From positions 162,069-226,068 of the forward strand of contig CAWBYA010000004.1 of NCBI GenBank assembly GCA_963792895.1: a DNA stretch of 64,000 bases. The letters are read 5' to 3'. The notes below the pieces were generated by a model. The model worked only from the letters and a program-made list of their open reading frames with translations, did no database searches and was not told the origin of the DNA. Below are positions 2,216-60,052 of the stretch, in pieces; the stretch's first letter is position 1; every line of letters starts with the position of its first letter. This DNA is from an uncultured Acidimicrobiia bacterium (GTDB lineage: Bacteria > Actinomycetota > Acidimicrobiia > Spongiisociales > UBA5794). The translations under genes and the position numbers were made by a program.

Positions 2216-3281
2216 TCACCGCGGCAGACGAACCTTGCGAGTTGCGATCTCGTCGAGGTACGTGCGGTCGACGGTGATGCCGAAGCCCGAACCGGCACGC
2301 GGTGTCATCGCACCGTCGGTCACGGTCCACGCCGGGATGACGAGGTCATGGGCGAACCAGTGAGCCGAGCCTCCGAGGTCGCTCGGCAGCGAGACATGCG
2401 GGTGGGAGGCCAGCGCCACCGCAACCGTCTTTCCGATGCCGGTCTCTACGAGGCCGCCGATCTTCACATCGATGCGATGGCGCGGCAGCAAGCTCGATGG
2501 CTCGCCGCGTGAGGGTTGGCCCCAGGCGCCCAGGTTTGAGAACGACGGCATGGGCCGCGGACGATGCCGCAATCGTCACGATGTCGCCCAGCCGCTTCAC
2601 CGACTCGTCCAAGCAGACGGTTGTGGAGATTCGCGCCTGCAGCGTCGCATGGCCGGGCAGGTCGAGTGGGCCGAGGGGCTGCTCGATGTAGGTGAGCCCG
2701 AGCCGGTCGAGCGCGACGAGGTCGTCCATCTGCGTTCGCCGGAAGCTCCCGTTTGCGTCGACGGCGATCCCGATGTCGGGGAAATGGCGCCGAACGTCGC
2801 CGACAACGTCGAGTCGCCCTGGCATGATCTTCAGCTTGACCTGCGTGTGGCCAGCCTCGACCGCTCGGGCTACTGCGCCGATCACATCTGCGGGTGCGGC
2901 CCCGAGCCCGATCGCCGCCGATGCGGTGACCGGCTCTATCCCACCGCCGACCTCGGCGGCCAGCGACACGCCGTTGTGAGCCGCACGCAGCGAGGTGAGG
3001 GCTGCGTCCATGGCAGACGTTGCGCTCGAGCCCTCGATGAGCACCGGCTCATCGGCTCCGAGGATGCGGCCGGCTTCCCGTACGAGAAGCTCCCAGGCCT
3101 CGTCTGCATTGTCGCGGGTATGACCCGGGAATGGCGCAGCTTCGCCCCACCCTTCTGCCTCATTGCGGGAGACACGAACGATGACGGCGCGACGGGTCTC
3201 GAAGGTGCCGTCGCTCGTGACGAGGGGCCGCACCAACGGCAGCTCGACGTTCCATAGCTCGATGCGTTCCGGCCGGATCAT
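2216..3281 (-). CDS. menC: o-succinylbenzoate synthase / N-acylamino acid racemase-like enolase-superfamily enzyme, frameshifted near 2482
   Basis: EGWGEAAP, KLKI, DANG, YIEQP, LDES, LKPG in ORF 2346..3305; C-terminus (KIGGLVETGIG...SDL) continues in ORF 2216..2572 in another frame. Confidence 0.7.
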
Positions 3282-3400
3282 GGCAGGGGTTCGAGGCGTC
3301 GCCATTGCCCCAGGCAGAATGTGGTTGCGCGCACGGGTGAGATGTTACGCAGCGGCGAGGTGGTAGTGATCGTTGCTCTCGCTCGCGCAGCGCGGTTCGT

Positions 3401-4038
3401 CTACCTCGGTTCGGGCAGGGTCCAGAAGCTCGAGCGGAGCCCAACCGACGCAAGAAGGTGTTGCAGCGCCTCGCGGGCGCGGGGCTGTAGGTGCGGTCGA
3501 GGCGATCGCCGTACCACCGTCGGGTCAGCCGCCACATGATCTCGATCGGGACCGCTGCGCCCCGCCGTGTCGCGCGTTCCTCCGACCGGAGGAAGCGGAT
3601 GGTGCGTCACGTCTCGACGATGTCGTCCCACCACTGTCTGGCTGGAATCGCGAAGTGGATGAACCCGCCGGTCGACGTCAGGGTGCCGCCGGCGACGGCG
3701 AGCTCGATCGGCTCACCCGTGTCGTGCCATCGTGCGTCGATCGTGGCATCGATGCGGAGCACCGCCGGAATCGCAAGCGAGTCCCATGCACAGTTTGCCC
3801 ACCATTCGCGATCGTCGGCGACGACCCGATAGTCGGTCGGCACCGCCGAGAAGGGGAGCGCCATACGAATCTCGCCGCGTGCGTCGAGCACCAGTGCATG
3901 TGCGTCATGGAGCCGGCGCAGCGCCTGACGCCCCGCCGCATCCCCGCCAGCCCACGTTGCGATCGCTGCAGTGGTGGGAGGCCGCCCGGTGTCGGCAAAC
4001 GTTCGGTAGATCTCGTACCGGAGTTGTCCATCGTCCAC
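3401..4038 (-). CDS. MerB-like (alkylmercury lyase family) protein, probable selenoprotein (UGA 3607-3609), with a 1-nt deletion near 3481-3484
   Basis: MALPFS, WANCAWD, HFAIPARQWWDDIVET then TGA; in-frame continuation RTIRFLRSEE...MWRLTRRWYGDRLD, and with one more G at 3481-3484 the tail PRAREALQHLLASVGLRSSFWTL; hairpin 12 nt after the UGA. Confidence 0.8.
3577..3594 (-). promoter_or_regulatory. Putative bacterial SECIS element
   Basis: Minus strand TTCCTCC-GGTC-GGAGGAA: perfect 7-bp stem, GGUC loop, starts 12 nt 3' of the UGA. Confidence 0.7.
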
Positions 4039-5032: not shown

Positions 5033-6184
5033 TCAGTAGAGCTCGTACTGCCCGGCGACGAGCCTGTCTCGGACGCCTGCCCAGTCTTCGAAGCACTCCT
5101 CGACGACCGTGAGCACGGCAACGTCGTCGACAGGGCCGCCCGCAATCTCGATGTGCACTGCCTGCGGCGACGTGACGGGGGCGCCGATCGAGCTGAGCAG
5201 CCGGATGGTGACCTCTTCGATGCCAAGCTCGTTGATGAGGCGATCGGAGATGTCGGCGCCAACGGCGTGGTACGTCTTGCCAACGTGGGCTGCCGGGTTC
5301 TTGCCGGCCGCCGCTTCGAGGCTCATGGGCCGATACGGGGTGATGAGCCCACCGAACCGGTTGCCACGACCCACCTGACCGTCGTCGCCGGCTTCGGCAG
5401 AGGTGCCGGTGAGTGTCAGGTAGGGCGTGTCGGCTTCGTCACCCTGGTTGACGCCAACCTCCACCGGTCCGCCGAACGCCTCGGTGGCGACATCCATGGA
5501 CGTGCCTCGGATGGCCTGGACGACCTCGTCGTACTCGGGACGATTCGCGACGGCCTTGGCCATGACGGGAGCCGCCACCGTGAGCCTGGCCTCGAGGCCG
5601 ACGCGAGCACCCATCACCTTGATGTCACGGCCGACGGGAACCGCAGCGCGGTAGCCGTCCGAGTTGAGGTGTTTCTCGACGGCGTGAACGGTGCGTTCGA
5701 GCGGAGAGCGCGGCAGCGACACGGCAGCGAACGACGTGTCATTGGCGTGCGGCGCCTCGTCGCGTGGGCCTGCGACCGCGGCCAGGTCGATCGACGACTG
5801 GCTGAGCCAGATCTCGACGTCGAAGGCCTCGGGGGTTGCATCTGGGAGCAGTTCGAGGAGCTTCTGCTTGTATTCCGCAGCCAATTCCTCGACGTTTGGC
5901 TGCCAGTGCGTCGAGAAGTTCGCCTTGCCGACCAAGACCAGTTTGGCGGACTTCAAGTGGACGCCGCCGCCGAAACCGACGTCGACAGAGCCTGCGGCGA
6001 GGATCGCCTTGTCGACGTTGAAATGCTGGACCGCGCCGGTGTGGGTGATGTAGTCGGACGCAAGCCGCCTGGCCAAGTCCTCGGCGAGATGGTCGCAGAT
6101 CGTGTCCGGGTGGCCGAGCCCTTTGCGTTCGACGAACTCCACGGGCGGCGCGTAGCGGCCTCGGTGCGTGACGGAGAGATTCAT
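5033..6184 (-). CDS. S-adenosylmethionine synthetase, archaeal-type
   Basis: VERKGLGHPDTICD, NDTS, GDDGQVGRGNR..GLITPYRPMSLEAAAGKNP..HVGK; ATG at 6184. Confidence 0.85.
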   Translation of the reverse strand: MNLSVTHRGRYAPPVEFVERKGLGHPDTICDHLAEDLARRLASDYITHTGAVQHFNVDKAILAAGSVDVGFGGGVHLKSAKLVLVGKANFSTHWQPNVEELAAEYKQKLLELLPDATPEAFDVEIWLSQSSIDLAAVAGPRDEAPHANDTSFAAVSLPRSPLERTVHAVEKHLNSDGYRAAVPVGRDIKVMGARVGLEARLTVAAPVMAKAVANRPEYDEVVQAIRGTSMDVATEAFGGPVEVGVNQGDEADTPYLTLTGTSAEAGDDGQVGRGNRFGGLITPYRPMSLEAAAGKNPAAHVGKTYHAVGADISDRLINELGIEEVTIRLLSSIGAPVTSPQAVHIEIAGGPVDDVAVLTVVEECFEDWAGVRDRLVAGQYELY

Positions 6185-6259
6185 GGCATGCGCCCCCTGT
6201 GGCGTGAACAAACGGACATCGTAGTTGGCTGGCTGAGCATCGAGGATTTCGATCAGCGT

Positions 6260-7432
6260 TCAGCAGCGCGGAAGCGCTTCGCGGATCTTCACCTTTCCCC
6301 CTGTGCGGAGGAGCCCGCCGGAGTAGACCCGCCCGCCGATCCGGAGCATCAGTGCGATCGCCCCGATCATGAGGGCGATCGACACGATCACTTCCCAGTT
6401 CATCGCCGTGCCCGCAGCCATACGCAGGGGCATCGTCATCGGGGAGAAGGGTGGGACGAGCGACATGGCCCGGAGGATCGGGTTGTCGCCGCCTGTAAGC
6501 GACGAGGTGGCAGTGAAGTATCCGATGAGCATGACCATCGTGAGTGGGAAGGAGGCGTTCTGGGCTTCCTCCTGCCGGGACACGAGAGATCCGGCGACGG
6601 CAAAGCCCGATGCGAAGAAGGCGAAGCCGAGCAGGAACCATCCGATGACGATTGCCACGAGGCCGACACCAACGCTCGGAACGTCGAACGTGTCCGTCGT
6701 CCGTACGATGTAGACACCCAGACCCGCGATGAGGAGGAGTTGGGCGAGACCGAGAAGCCCGATCCCCAGCACCTTGCCGGCCAGGAGGTGGCGGGGACGC
6801 ACCGCACCGAGCACAACCTCGACCACGCGGCTCGACTTCTCCTCGACGACGCCGATGAGGATCCACTGCCCGTACGTGACGATGGAGATGAACAGGAGCA
6901 CGGTGCCGATGAACGCAACCACCGTCTTGCTCTCCTCATCCTCGATCCGCTCCAAAGGCTCCACCTGTACTGCGGTGTCGAGCAGCCGTGCGATGTCTCC
7001 CGGGGTGAGGCCCAGCTCGGCAGCCCTGTCTCGAACGCCGGCGGCGCCAACGCCCACGGACACGAGGGATATCAGCTCCGGGTCGGTGTTCGGGCCGGTG
7101 AGCACGACAGTCGCGTCGACGACACCGATGTCGACGTCGCCGTCGAGGACTGCGGTTTCGAGTTCCGCTCGGTCTCCGAACTCGGTGAACTCCGCCGTCG
7201 TGCCTTGTTGCGATGCGGTCGTCTCGATCACCGCCCCCAGGCCGACCGGGATCTCGCCCACGACACCGATCGAGTAGTTGGGAGGCTCGTCGAGACCGAA
7301 GATCGAGGGTGCCAGCAGCAGACCAAGCACGATGAGGACCGTGAGCGCCGTCGAGATCTGGAATGCCCGGCTGGCTACCCGCTCGCGCAGCTCCCGTGCG
7401 GCCACCAGCCAGATTGAGCGCATCCAGCTCAT
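6260..7432 (-). CDS. ABC-2 type transporter permease
   Basis: Multiple TMs, EEKSSRVVEVVL motif; ATG overlaps the ATPase stop. The last codons may be altered by an indel near 6275. Confidence 0.85.
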   Translation of the reverse strand: MSWMRSIWLVAARELRERVASRAFQISTALTVLIVLGLLLAPSIFGLDEPPNYSIGVVGEIPVGLGAVIETTASQQGTTAEFTEFGDRAELETAVLDGDVDIGVVDATVVLTGPNTDPELISLVSVGVGAAGVRDRAAELGLTPGDIARLLDTAVQVEPLERIEDEESKTVVAFIGTVLLFISIVTYGQWILIGVVEEKSSRVVEVVLGAVRPRHLLAGKVLGIGLLGLAQLLLIAGLGVYIVRTTDTFDVPSVGVGLVAIVIGWFLLGFAFFASGFAVAGSLVSRQEEAQNASFPLTMVMLIGYFTATSSLTGGDNPILRAMSLVPPFSPMTMPLRMAAGTAMNWEVIVSIALMIGAIALMLRIGGRVYSGGLLRTGGKVKIREALPRC

Positions 7433-58039: not shown

Positions 58040-60052
58040 ATGACTCAGCCGACGGGCGCGTCTGCACACACAATCTTCGATCGTCGGGGACCCGCCGCCT
58101 TCATGGTCGCGTCCCTCGCCATCGGCGTGCTGGTCGGTCTCGGAGCATCCGCCCTCGTCATCGGCGCCCACTTCATCGCGGACGTCGTCGGCAGTGTCGA
58201 TGACGACGGGGTGGGGCGGCTGATGCCGCTCTTTGCCGTGCCGCTCGGCCTCGTCGTTGCGTGGCTCATCGCACGGCGGTGGGGCCCGGGAATCGAAGGC
58301 GACGGCGTTCCCGAGACGATGGTCGGGATCTCGCTGCGAGGCGGATACCTGCCCGGCCGCATCGTCGGCGCCAAGCTCTCGGCAACGATGGCGACGCTGG
58401 GATTCGGGGGCTCGGCGGGACGGGAGGGCCCCATCGTGCAGATCGGGGGCACGATCGGTTCGGTGCTTGCCCGTCGCACGCGCTTCGGAGAGGATCAGGT
58501 GCGCAGCCTGATCGCGGCCGGTGCGGGTGCAGGCATTGGTGCGAGCTTCAATGCTCCCATCGCCGGGATGCTCTTTGCGCTCGAGGTGATCCTCGGCAAT
58601 TTCGCGATCCGGCACCTCAACGCAGTGGTCGTGGCCTCGGTGGCGGCGGCCGTCACAACGCGGCTGGCGATCGGCGAGGAACGGATCCTCTCGGCGCCGG
58701 CGCACACGCTTGGTTCTCCGACCGAGCTCATCTTGTACGCGGCGCTCGGCGTGCTCGCGGGGGTGGTCGCCGTCACGTTCCTTCGGTTTCTCGAGGCGCC
58801 TGAGCGAGCCGCCGCCCGGCTGGGAGGCGTGAGCCGCCCGCTGGTCGCCGGGCTGTTGATCGGAGCCGCCGGCATCATCGAGCCACGGGTGCTTGGCACG
58901 GGTCAGGACGTCGTGGCCCACCTGCTGCAGTTGCCGGCGGACAGTACCGAGCTCTGGTACGTGCTCCTTGCTCTCGTTGGCCTCAAGATCCTCGCTGTGA
59001 CGCTCACGCTCAATGGCGGCGGGTCCGGCGGCGCGTTCATGCCGAGCCTCTTCCTCGGTGCCAACCTCGGTGCTGCCCTCGCCCTCGTCGTTCAGCCACT
59101 GTGGGGGCTGTCGACGCTGCAGCCCGGGGCGTTTGCCGTCGTCGGTATGGCGGCGGCCTTCGCCGGTGTTGCCCGAGCTCCGCTCACGTCCATCATCATC
59201 GTGTTCGAAATCACGGGCGACTACGGGCTCGTGCTGCCGCTGATGCTCGCAACGTCCGTCGCAACGATGCTCGCCGAGCGGCTGGAGCCGAACAGCGCCT
59301 ACACGGCGCCACTGCGGAGGCGGGGTATCCACCTGCCGACCCGGGAAGATGTCGACCTGCTCGACACGGTGACCGTTGCCGATGTGATGTCCGGACCGGA
59401 CACGGTGTGTTCTCCCGACGTCACCGCAGCCGAGGCGAGCGCTCTCCTCGAGCGCACCCGGCACCACGGTATGCCGGTCGTGGAGGCCGGACACCTCGTC
59501 GGCATAGTGACCCTGTCCGATCTGGCGAAGGAGGGGGCGACAACGGTTGGCGACGTCATGACCCTCCGACCCATCACCGTGTCGCCCAGCCTCCCGGTGT
59601 CGGAGGCACTGGCGAGGATGGCCGCGCTCGACGTGGGGAGGTTGCCGGTCGTTGCTGAAGATCGGCCGGATGTCCTCCTCGGCATGTTTCGCAGGGACAG
59701 CGCCGTTGTTGCGTACGAGCGGGCCCTCGGTGCAACAACCGATCGCCGCCTGTCACGTGAGCGTCACGATGTTCGCGCTGCACCGAGGACGGCGTTCTTC
59801 GAGATCTGGATACCGCATGGCTCGCCGGTCAAGGGACGCAACGTGCGAAGCGTGGTGTGGCCCGACGACGTGACGCTCGTGTCGATTCGCCGTGGCTCCT
59901 CAGTTCTCATCCCGCACGGCGATACGACCCTCGAACCGGGCGACACGGTCACTGCCTATGGCTCGGCAGGAGCGAAGGCGCGAATGGAGGCGATTCTCGG
60001 GGTCGGCGGCGGGGGGCGGCAGCCAAACGATGCGCACGCCGCCGGTCGCTGA
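58040..60052 (+). CDS. CLC-family chloride channel/transporter with CBS pair and RCK_C domain
   Basis: GDGVP, GREGP, NAPIAG, GGAFMP; CBS HHGMPVV / GRLPVV; IRRG..LIPHGDT.L.PGD. Confidence 0.92.
   Translation: MTQPTGASAHTIFDRRGPAAFMVASLAIGVLVGLGASALVIGAHFIADVVGSVDDDGVGRLMPLFAVPLGLVVAWLIARRWGPGIEGDGVPETMVGISLRGGYLPGRIVGAKLSATMATLGFGGSAGREGPIVQIGGTIGSVLARRTRFGEDQVRSLIAAGAGAGIGASFNAPIAGMLFALEVILGNFAIRHLNAVVVASVAAAVTTRLAIGEERILSAPAHTLGSPTELILYAALGVLAGVVAVTFLRFLEAPERAAARLGGVSRPLVAGLLIGAAGIIEPRVLGTGQDVVAHLLQLPADSTELWYVLLALVGLKILAVTLTLNGGGSGGAFMPSLFLGANLGAALALVVQPLWGLSTLQPGAFAVVGMAAAFAGVARAPLTSIIIVFEITGDYGLVLPLMLATSVATMLAERLEPNSAYTAPLRRRGIHLPTREDVDLLDTVTVADVMSGPDTVCSPDVTAAEASALLERTRHHGMPVVEAGHLVGIVTLSDLAKEGATTVGDVMTLRPITVSPSLPVSEALARMAALDVGRLPVVAEDRPDVLLGMFRRDSAVVAYERALGATTDRRLSRERHDVRAAPRTAFFEIWIPHGSPVKGRNVRSVVWPDDVTLVSIRRGSSVLIPHGDTTLEPGDTVTAYGSAGAKARMEAILGVGGGGRQPNDAHAAGR

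What the first reader, a model, noticed from the sequence alone, without database searches (positions are those of the whole stretch)
3401..4038. Hidden selenoprotein: MerB-like lyase with UGA at the second catalytic Cys position
Seen: the ORF stops at WWDDIVET-TGA (3607-3609), but the same frame continues RTIRFLRSEE...IMWRLTRRWYGDRLDRTYSP, and restoring one G at 3481-3484 adds RAREALQHLLASVGLRSSFWTLPEPR-stop, giving about 212 aa with the UGA at residue 144. The N-terminal half has NCAWD. Known: MerB uses Cys96/Asp99 (CxxD) plus Cys159, and MerB-like proteins with Sec have been described. Inference: UGA encodes Sec as the second metal ligand. There is no mer operon here, so the substrate may not be organomercury. 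Automated annotation would call a truncated gene.
Basis: partly seen in the sequence, partly recalled or inferred. Interest (0 to 1): 0.9.

Follow-up and report, generated by a model that had tools for sequence, protein, structure and literature searches.

The report
Selenocysteine MerB-like lyase gene, mis-assembled
This is a real gene for a relative of the mercury-carbon bond-cleaving enzyme MerB in which one metal-binding cysteine is replaced by selenocysteine. It belongs to a large, widespread clade that databases cut short at that codon and that differs from the one MerB-like selenoprotein already described (SaoL).

Summary
On the minus strand a MerB-family ORF (GTG 4038) runs into TGA at 3607-3609, and the same frame carries the rest of the MerB domain.

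- **Relatives:** in 77 of 80 species-representative loci from about ten phyla the same column is an in-frame TGA. Two loci have Cys and one has TAG. The 65-78 codons after it are conserved in the same frame.
- **Recoding signal:** a 7-bp hairpin with a GGUC loop sits 12 nt after the UGA, one base off the E. coli fdhF SECIS spacing. It shows compensatory changes and is absent from the two Cys loci.
- **Active site:** Cys83 and Asp86 (NCAWD) align with MerB Cys96/Asp99, and the UGA aligns with the Cys159-equivalent Cys of MerB2. AlphaFold gives pLDDT 96.7, and only MerB structures match the model.
- **Frameshift:** it is real in the window, but contigs from four public runs carry one more G at 3475-3477, not 3481-3484. 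This restores a 212-aa ORF, so it is most likely an assembly error.
- **Classification:** the protein fails the SaoL and MerB NCBIfam cut-offs, has T-U rather than C-U, and has no SAO or mer neighbours.

Verdict: a genuine selenoprotein and a new variant of a known kind. Its substrate is unknown.

The parts
3401..4038 (-). MerB-like selenoprotein gene. It starts at GTG 4036-4038, has Sec codon 144 and ends at TAG 3401-3403. With the missing base restored it encodes 212 aa; as assembled, the frame breaks at 3475-3477.
   Evidence: ORF and translation. Pfam PF03243 1-126/126 at 83 bits with read-through. Homologues begin MDDxxLR. Full-length in-frame relatives. AlphaFold pLDDT 96.7 and MerB-only fold matches.
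3607..3609 (-). In-frame UGA read as selenocysteine (residue 144). It is the equivalent of MerB Cys159.
   Evidence: The same column is TGA in 77/80 loci, Cys in 2 and TAG in 1. It aligns with Cys in MerB2 5c17 and in the Cys-type homologues P0090/P0097/P0114/P0121. The TGA is reproduced in contigs of four public runs.
3577..3594 (-). SECIS-type hairpin UUCCUCC-GGUC-GGAGGAA. The stem is nt 16-22 and 27-33 and the loop is nt 23-26, counted from the U of UGA. Weaker lower pairs extend it to about 3568-3600.
   Evidence: Fold. The GGUC loop is at the same place in 71/78 loci, with 92.9% of cells paired against 49-66% when slid, and 4 of 7 pairs show compensatory changes. It is absent in the two Cys loci. 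In E. coli fdhF the GGUC is at nt 22-25.
3781..3795 (-). N-C-A-W-D motif: Cys83 (3790-3792) and Asp86 (3781-3783). These are the equivalents of MerB Cys96 and Asp99.
   Evidence: C83, W85 and D86 are invariant in 42 sequences. The phmmer alignment to E. coli MerB 3f2g pairs anCawD with awCalD.
3475..3477 (.). GGG run (CCC on the coding strand) where the window lacks one base relative to public contigs. This causes the apparent frameshift in the last 24 codons.
   Evidence: One G is 'put in behind 3474' in contigs of X1, X2 and X5 and in a metatranscriptome contig of X6. All 76 relatives that hold the whole gene keep one frame to ...GLxxxFWxL. A second ORF-breaking 1-nt indel lies at 2484 in the neighbouring gene.

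Best explanation
The gene at 3401-4038 (minus strand) encodes a 212-residue MerB-fold protein. Its UGA at codon 144 is decoded as selenocysteine.

**Recoding (inferred).** The hairpin 12 nt downstream, with its GGUC loop, would recruit SelB carrying Sec-tRNA(Sec) to the ribosome, as the fdhF SECIS does in E. coli. The ribosome then reads on for 68 more codons to TAG 3401-3403.

**Active site (shown by alignment).** The product has the MerB-type site Cys83 / Asp86 / Sec144.

**Chemistry (inferred).** By analogy with MerB, the thiolate and the selenolate bind the metal of an organometallic substrate, most plausibly an organomercurial such as methylmercury. The aspartate then protonates the carbon and cleaves the carbon-metal bond. 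The selenolate would give higher nucleophilicity and metal affinity than Cys.

**Context (shown).** The gene stands alone, with no mer or SAO partners nearby.

**Frameshift.** The frameshift in the window is an error of this assembly or, at most, a variant of this strain. It is not a feature of the gene in the population.

In short, the gene structure, the conservation, the hairpin and the fold are shown. Sec insertion, the substrate and catalysis are inferred.
For: 1. **Sec/Cys pairing.** 77 of 80 species-representative loci from Actinomycetota, Chloroflexota, Gemmatimonadota, Acidobacteriota, Planctomycetota, NC10, KSB1, Calditrichota and others have TGA at exactly this column, and two have Cys. 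The true terminators of the same genes are a mix of TGA, TAG and TAA, so TGA is not a general sense codon.
2. **Downstream coding.**
   - The 65-78 codons after the UGA stay in frame and are conserved (WYGDRL, GLTxxFW).
   - In close pairs the ratio of synonymous to non-synonymous codon differences is 159:159 downstream and 368:317 upstream.
   - Pfam coverage rises from profile positions 1-80 to 1-126 of 126 with read-through.
3. **Hairpin.** It is conserved in position and shows compensatory pairs: 45 cells changed on both sides, matched by 0 of 500 shuffles. Cells paired are 92.9%, against at most 66% in slid controls. It is missing in the Cys forms. Its loop and spacing match E. coli fdhF within one base.
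4. **Catalytic residues and fold.**
   - C83, D86 and U144 are invariant and align with MerB Cys96/Asp99 and with the MerB2 Cys.
   - AlphaFold gives pLDDT 96.7 and pTM 0.92, with 93-98 in the 40 residues after the Sec position.
   - The 11 significant PDB matches are all MerB or MerB2, with TM 0.65-0.72 for the crystal structures.
5. **Sequence checks against public runs.** The TGA is confirmed in contigs of four public runs, and contigs of four runs from three studies restore the reading frame.
6. **Sec machinery elsewhere.** Two carriers encode it within 10 kb: selA in L054 and selD in L053. A preprint reports selA, selC, selD and a divergent selB in all 84 complete genomes of Actinomarina, another Acidimicrobiia lineage (10.64898/2026.04.03.716425).
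7. **Tree.** The window sits in an 18-row, all-Sec Acidimicrobiia clade with 100/99 support. Sec and Cys forms are interleaved across the family.
Against: - None lies in the 64-kb window or, apart from L053 and L054, in the fetched flanks.
- As assembled, the window's copy carries a frameshift. If that is real in this strain, its last 24 residues would be wrong.
- For the window's hairpin alone the folding energy is not exceptional for this G+C-rich sequence (z = -0.75). The case for the hairpin rests on comparative data.
- No experiment shows selenium in any member of this clade, or any enzymatic activity.
- There is no MerA or other mer gene to take over the Hg(II), and a Hg-Se bond might hinder product release. 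Organomercurial lyase activity is therefore only the most likely guess.
Confidence: 0.87

Rival explanations
1. The protein is a genuine selenoprotein with the MerB fold, but it is not an organomercurial lyase. It acts on another organometal or organometalloid, or it serves as a high-affinity metal-binding or metal-transfer protein for Hg(II), Cu or similar.
For: - There are no mer genes in the window and no conserved neighbourhood across the family.
- The protein scores far below the MerB equivalog cut-offs: 46.7 against 193 and 40.9 against 200.
- Haft & Gwadz make the same reservation for SaoL and note that MerB binds other metals.
- The family is spread through ordinary soil, sediment and marine bacteria.
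Against: - The full Cys/Asp/(Se)Cys triad is invariant. In MerB the Asp is the proton donor for C-Hg cleavage (established knowledge of MerB). Simple metal binding would not obviously need it.
- The whole fold superposes on MerB.
Confidence: 0.35
2. The window's copy is a dead gene in this particular strain. The 1-nt deletion at 3475-3477 is real, so the protein has a scrambled C-terminus even though the family is functional elsewhere.
For: The frameshift is present in the window as given. The origin and read support of the window's assembly are unknown to me.
Against: - Five contigs from four public runs in three studies are identical, or 99% identical, over 240-425 bases. All carry the extra G.
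- A second single-base indel 1 kb away, at 2484, also breaks a conserved gene (the MenC-like gene) and is also contradicted by three runs. This is the pattern of consensus errors.
- The rest of the gene shows no decay.
Confidence: 0.1
3. There is no recoding. The gene ends at the TGA as a 143-residue truncated MerB-like protein. The conserved downstream stretch is then a separate small gene, a remnant, or a regulatory RNA.
For: Every gene caller and database entry seen ends at this codon.
Against: - The downstream part is always in the same frame and directly abuts the TGA, with conservation starting at the very next codon.
- It completes the Pfam domain and folds with the N-terminal part at pLDDT 93-98.
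- It is under the same purifying selection as the upstream part.
- Cys-type relatives are single continuous proteins.
- The truncated form would lack one of the two metal ligands.
- A 'lesion' shared by 77 species across about ten phyla cannot be decay.
Confidence: 0.03

Closest known systems
SaoL, the MerB-like 'selenocysteine-assisted organometallic lyase' (NCBIfam NF040728; Haft & Gwadz 2022, bioRxiv 10.1101/2022.07.06.499078)
   Same: - Both have the MerB fold (PF03243).
- In both, Sec is encoded by UGA at the position of MerB Cys159, and the Cys96/Asp99 equivalents are kept.
[quoted passage not shown]
   Different: - The window protein scores 42 bits against a cut-off of 140.
- Its motif is T-U, not C-U.
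- It has no nine-gene SAO locus. Its neighbours are MenC-like, HhH-GPD, SAM synthetase and ABC transporter genes.
- Its carriers are Acidimicrobiia, Gaiellales, Chloroflexota, Gemmatimonadota and others, not the exclusively anaerobic Firmicutes, Deltaproteobacteria and spirochaetes of SaoL.
- Two selenoprotein catalogues list only the SaoL form (PMC9312934 and PMC13188914).
Canonical organomercurial lyase MerB / MerB2 (EC 4.99.1.2; PDB 3F0P, 3F2G, 5C17)
   Same: - The overall fold matches (TM 0.65-0.72 over about 195 columns).
- The Cys-x-x-Asp motif aligns with Cys96/Asp99, and the third ligand sits at the Cys159 position.
   Different: - The third ligand is Sec, not Cys.
- Sequence identity is only 21-23%.
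- The protein scores below the NCBIfam MerB cut-offs.
- It is not part of a mer operon and is not on a plasmid or transposon.
Cys-type 'alkylmercury lyase family proteins' of the same clade (for example Sinosporangium siamense, L020/P0097)
   Same: - Identity is 43-46% over the full length, with the same C-terminal WYGDRL...GLTGxFWxL tail.
- They are interleaved with Sec forms in the tree.
   Different: - They have Cys (TGC/TGT) at the column and no GGUC hairpin after it.
- Their function is also uncharacterised.
E. coli fdhF SECIS element
   Same: - Both are hairpins immediately 3' of the UGA with a GGUC apical loop.
- The loop is at nt 22-25 in fdhF and nt 23-26 here.
   Different: - The stem sequence differs.
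- The window's hairpin has no match to any Rfam family at gathering score.
- Binding to SelB has not been tested.

Membership tests
Bacterial selenoprotein gene (UGA recoded to Sec) | The in-frame UGA aligns with Cys in homologues (a Sec/Cys pair) | tested here: met
   The column is TGA in 77/80 loci and Cys in L020 and L044. Cys also appears there in P0090, P0097, P0114 and P0121.
Bacterial selenoprotein gene (UGA recoded to Sec) | Coding conservation continues 3' of the UGA in the same frame | tested here: met
   tblastn matches span query residues about 9-214 in one frame. The synonymous to non-synonymous ratio downstream resembles that upstream. The Pfam domain is completed.
Bacterial selenoprotein gene (UGA recoded to Sec) | A SECIS hairpin lies directly downstream of the UGA, with G/U in the apical loop at the right distance | tested here: met
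   There is a 7-bp stem with a GGUC loop at nt 23-26. It is conserved with compensatory changes, absent in the Cys forms, and its spacing matches fdhF.
Bacterial selenoprotein gene (UGA recoded to Sec) | The genome encodes selA, selB, selD and tRNA-Sec | not testable with these tools
None of these genes is in the window. Indirect evidence only: selA lies near the gene in L054 and selD in L053, and Sec machinery is reported in Actinomarinales.
Bacterial selenoprotein gene (UGA recoded to Sec) | Selenium is incorporated into the protein | not testable with these tools
   This needs 75Se labelling or mass spectrometry.
SaoL (NF040728) | Score at or above the curated HMM cut-off | tested here: not met
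   42.1 bits against a cut-off of 140.
SaoL (NF040728) | C-U dipeptide at the metal site | tested here: not met
   The motif is T-U in the window. Across the 77 TGA loci it is T-U in 75 and A-U in 2 (L051, L056).
SaoL (NF040728) | Lies in the nine-gene SAO locus | tested here: not met
   The flanking genes are MenC-like, HhH-GPD glycosylase, SAM synthetase and ABC ATPase. No neighbour is conserved across the family.
MerB family (Pfam PF03243) | Pfam domain match above the gathering score | tested here: met
   83.1 bits against 27, covering profile positions 1-126 of 126 with read-through.
Organomercurial lyase MerB (EC 4.99.1.2) | NCBIfam equivalog or exception model cut-off | tested here: not met
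   NF009710 scores 46.7 against 193. NF033555 scores 40.9 against 200.
Organomercurial lyase MerB (EC 4.99.1.2) | Catalytic Cys96 / Asp99 / Cys159 | tested here: inconclusive
   The Cys and Asp equivalents are present and invariant. The third position is Sec instead of Cys. The geometry in the model could not be measured with the tools.
Organomercurial lyase MerB (EC 4.99.1.2) | mer operon context (merR, merT, merP, merA) | tested here: not met
   tblastn with the R100 MerR, T, P, C, A, D and E proteins gives no hit in the window at E <= 1e-4.
Organomercurial lyase MerB (EC 4.99.1.2) | Cleaves C-Hg bonds | not testable with these tools
   This needs an enzyme assay.

The most novel reading that the evidence does not exclude
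This T-U clade is a stand-alone, selenium-dependent methylmercury/organomercurial lyase that works without a mer operon. It is carried by hundreds of species of ordinary aerobic or facultative soil, sediment and marine bacteria (Acidimicrobiia, Gaiellales, Chloroflexota, Gemmatimonadota, Acidobacteriota). If so, it would be a major unrecognised route of mer-independent methylmercury demethylation in nature. Surveys that count merB genes would miss it, because every database entry is truncated.
Probability: 0.25. Interest if true: 0.85.

Novelty: new variant of a known kind. Interest (0 to 1): 0.6.

Why it matters
**Annotation.** A whole clade is stored in public databases only as about 143-residue fragments that lack one of the two metal ligands.
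- The clade has at least 584 matching stretches in species-representative genomes.
- Its protein clusters number in the hundreds.
- No NCBIfam model reaches its cut-off for this protein.

**Selenium biology.** The clade adds a large family, found outside the anaerobes, to the catalogue of bacterial selenoproteins. It gives a second, independent example of Sec at the MerB metal site.

**Mercury cycling.** If the enzyme cleaves methylmercury, it offers a testable candidate for demethylation in environments where mer operons are rare.

**This window.** The finding also shows that the assembly carries single-base indel errors that break real genes.

Tried and rejected
- **tRNA and Rfam scans of the window:** nothing found.
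- **tRNA-Sec in the fetched loci:** ARAGORN found none in L001-L060. A grep of ARAGORN output over all fetched loci also gave nothing.
- **Other selenoprotein genes in the window:** a crude scan looked for an in-frame TGA followed by a GU-loop hairpin. It recovered the MerB-like site, and I translated two other candidates, at 59423 and 24019. Both translate as low-complexity, non-coding-looking frames, so I rejected them.
- **Conserved gene neighbourhood as a clue to function:** synteny appears only within one group of related Chloroflexota, and it involves unrelated genes (amino-acid kinase, glycosyltransferase, GNAT, TPR). Nothing is shared family-wide.
- **Plasmid search:** it returned only distant (<35%) Cys-type homologues, mostly on Ralstonia megaplasmids, and no mer context.
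- **Literature:**
  - The GOS paper (PMC2398784) and Peng et al. 2016 (PMC5029168) are cited in a review for a 'MerB-like' selenoprotein, but neither mentions MerB in its main text.
  - No paper in the library describes this non-SaoL clade.
- **Folding energy of the hairpin alone:** not significant (z = -0.75), so I did not use it as evidence.

Full report
**1. What is in the sequence**

The window has 64-71% G+C in its first 12 kb. On the minus strand an ORF runs from 4056 to a TGA at 3607-3609. Its likely start is GTG 4036-4038, because homologues begin MDDxxLR. It ends ...PARQWWDDIVET.

Reading through the TGA, the same frame continues RTIRFLRSEERATRRGAAVPIEIMWRLTRRWYGDRLDRTYSP.... About 35 codons later the expected C-terminus...GLRSSFWTLPEPR*, appears in the +1 frame.

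Pfam MerB (PF03243) matches profile positions 1-80 of 126 in the ORF as called (63 bits). It matches 1-126 of 126 with read-through (83 bits).

**2. Comparative evidence that the UGA is a sense codon**

*Truncated database entries.* A protein search returned 436 relatives. The 120 listed are almost all 139-150 residues long, 54-71% identical, and cover only the first 66% of the query. They come mostly from Acidimicrobiia MAGs. Aligned, they all end at ...DIVET. The few full-length relatives of 224-227 aa have Cys at the next column (...DVVYTCKTIL...) and end in ...GLTGSFWKL.

The best 80 loci were fetched. Translating them in the matched frame gives the following picture:
- 77 have TGA at exactly this column, 2 have Cys (L020 Sinosporangium siamense and L044), and 1 has TAG (L060 Blastococcus capsensis).
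- In every locus that holds the whole gene, the frame continues for 65-78 conserved codons.
- The true terminators are a mix of TGA, TAG and TAA, so TGA is not a general sense codon in these organisms.
- The carriers span Actinomycetota (Acidimicrobiia, Gaiellales/Thermoleophilia), Chloroflexota, Thermomicrobiota, Gemmatimonadota, Acidobacteriota, Planctomycetota, NC10, KSB1, Calditrichota and Marinimicrobia.

*Selection on the downstream part.* In eleven close pairs, synonymous to non-synonymous codon differences are 368:317 upstream of the UGA and 159:159 downstream. The second part is therefore under comparable purifying selection in that frame.

*Extent of truncation.* In an exhaustive search of 1.84 billion representatives, 1441 proteins match at E <= 1e-3 and 586 at E <= 1e-10. 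By my count, about 129 of the 150 best stop at query residue 140-143, and about 21 run past it.

*Tree.* A maximum-likelihood tree places the window in an 18-row, all-Sec Acidimicrobiia clade (support 100/99). Sec and Cys forms are interleaved, with about six changes by parsimony and at least three forced by well-supported branches. This is the usual pattern for Sec/Cys families.

**3. The recoding signal**

Twelve nucleotides after the UGA lies UUCCUCC-GGUC-GGAGGAA (3577-3594, minus strand). Counted from the U of UGA, the loop is at nt 23-26.

*Position across relatives.* The same hairpin at the same position is present in nearly all TGA-bearing loci, and the loop is GGUC in 71 of 78.

*Pairing on the 78-sequence alignment.*
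- 92.9% of cells form standard pairs, against 49-66% when the 3' arm is slid by 1-3 columns.
- Four of seven pairs show changes on both sides. For example, pair 19:30 is U-A in 39 sequences, C-G in 20 and U-G in 18. Pair 21:28 is C-G in 64 and U-A in 12.
- In total 45 cells have a change on both sides, a value reached by 0 of 500 shuffles.
- Several of these changes couple a synonymous change in one arm to an amino-acid change in the other: FLRSE(E) against FLRSK(D).

*Controls and comparison.* The two Cys-type loci have no such hairpin. In E. coli fdhF, fetched and checked here, the SECIS loop is also GGUC, at nt 22-25.

*Limits.* For the window's hairpin alone the folding energy is not unusual for this base composition (z = -0.75), so the evidence is comparative. 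No Rfam family matches at gathering score. A recent preprint notes that bacterial SECIS elements are poorly represented in Rfam.

**4. The frameshift**

Logan contigs from sediment-metagenome runs X1 and X2 (one study) and marine-metagenome run X5 (another study) are identical to the window over 310-425 bases, apart from one indel described below. The identical stretch includes the TGA.

A contig from X3 also covers the TGA. A contig from X4 breaks at 3475.

The indel: all three contigs that cross the site carry one extra G in the GGG run at 3475-3477. An estuary metatranscriptome contig (X6, a third study) shows the same. With that base the gene reads ...DRLDRTYSPAPREALQHLLASVGLRSSFWTLPEPR*, 212 aa in all. 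This tail has the same 13-residue spacing between YxP and GL as in the closest relative, L001.

One kilobase away, at 2484, the window has one base more than the contigs of three runs. That also splits a conserved gene, the MenC-like gene, whose real C-terminus lies in ORF 2216-2572. Two ORF-breaking single-base indels within 12 kb, both contradicted by independent data, point to consensus errors in the assembly rather than to gene decay. A genuine strain variant cannot be excluded without the original reads.

**5. What the protein is**

*Family scores.* NCBIfam gives only sub-threshold hits:

| Model | Score (bits) | Cut-off (bits) |
|---|---|---|
| MerB equivalog NF009710 | 46.7 | 193 |
| SaoL NF040728 | 42.1 | 140 |
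| NF033555 | 40.9 | 200 |

*Catalytic residues.* Against solved structures, the protein aligns with MerB2 (5c17, E = 2.5e-7) so that ...ETC(U)RTIRFLRSE pairs with ...GGTCKQIHYFSS. It aligns with E. coli MerB (3f2g) so that anCawD pairs with awCalD, that is, Cys96 and Asp99. In a 42-sequence alignment C83, W85, D86 and the Sec/Cys column are invariant.

*Fold.* I ran AlphaFold2 on the window's own 188 residues up to the frameshift, with TGA read as Cys. It gives mean pLDDT 96.7 and pTM 0.92, with pLDDT 93-98 in the 40 residues after the Sec position. The 11 significant PDB matches are all MerB or MerB2. The crystal structures give TM 0.65-0.72 over about 195 columns, and the next hit has E = 0.2.

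The protein is thus a MerB-fold enzyme with a Cys/Asp/Sec site.

**6. Context**

The flanking genes encode a MenC-like enolase-superfamily protein, an HhH-GPD glycosylase, an archaeal-type SAM synthetase, an ABC ATPase, an amidohydrolase and an SLH protein.

tblastn with the R100 MerR, T, P, C, A, D and E proteins finds nothing in the window. No neighbour is conserved across the family. The gene stands alone.

**7. Selenocysteine machinery**

The indirect support is as follows:
- selA lies 8 kb from the gene in L054, and selD 6 kb from it in L053.
- A preprint reports selA, selC, selD and a divergent selB in all 84 complete genomes of Actinomarina, another Acidimicrobiia lineage.
- Earlier, unchecked AI notes of this scan report two other candidate selenoprotein genes in this same genome.

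**8. Comparison with what is known**

MerB-like selenoproteins are known as SaoL (Haft & Gwadz 2022). SaoL has a C-U motif, sits in a nine-gene SAO locus, and occurs in strict anaerobes. The 2022 and 2026 selenoprotein catalogues list only that form.

The window's protein shares the principle of Sec at the Cys159 position. It fails all three tested defining features of SaoL: the HMM cut-off, the C-U motif and the SAO locus. I found no description of this T-U clade in the searchable literature. Earlier notes of this scan had come across the same clade in other genomes. Those are not independent evidence, but they agree with this reading.

**9. Verdict**

This is a genuine selenoprotein gene, with about 0.87 confidence. 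It is a new variant of a known kind. The substrate is unknown. Organomercurial protonolysis is the most likely chemistry, with metal binding or another organometal as the main alternative.

Noticed in passing
window 2216-3305 (minus), indel at 2484: The MenC-like enolase-superfamily gene is split into two ORFs, 2346-3305 and 2216-2572. Public contigs of three runs lack one base at 2484, so this is a second probable single-base assembly error in the window.
   Followed up: partly
L060 10001-10666 (Blastococcus capsensis BMG 804): The Sec column is TAG instead of TGA. The GGUC hairpin and the downstream frame are intact, and the sequence nests among Sec forms in the tree. It may be a recent inactivating mutation or a sequencing error in a cultured strain.
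   Followed up: no
L054 1075-2269; L053 16335-17321 and 15893-16111: selA lies 8 kb upstream of the MerB-like gene in a Solibacteraceae MAG. There it is split into two frames, probably by a long-read error. In a Thermoleophilia MAG, selD lies 6 kb downstream, with a MerR-family hit beside it.
   Followed up: partly
window 5033-6211 (minus): An archaeal-type S-adenosylmethionine synthetase (PF01941, 331 bits) is present rather than bacterial MetK.
   Followed up: no
proteins P0124 (308 aa), P0130 (334 aa), P0145 (291 aa): In these representatives the MerB-like part sits at the C-terminal end of a longer protein and still ends at the Sec column. They may be N-terminal fusions or over-extended starts.
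   Followed up: no
L041 10001-10790: After ...WYGDRLEHS the C-terminal tail diverges completely from the family (DDVRVSILRRHLERLG...) before the locus ends. This may be a rearranged or frameshifted copy.
   Followed up: no
window 5153-7417 (plus): This 754-aa ORF has no Pfam match. It lies antisense to the SAM synthetase gene and to a further long minus-strand ORF, so it is probably a spurious high-GC open frame.
   Followed up: no
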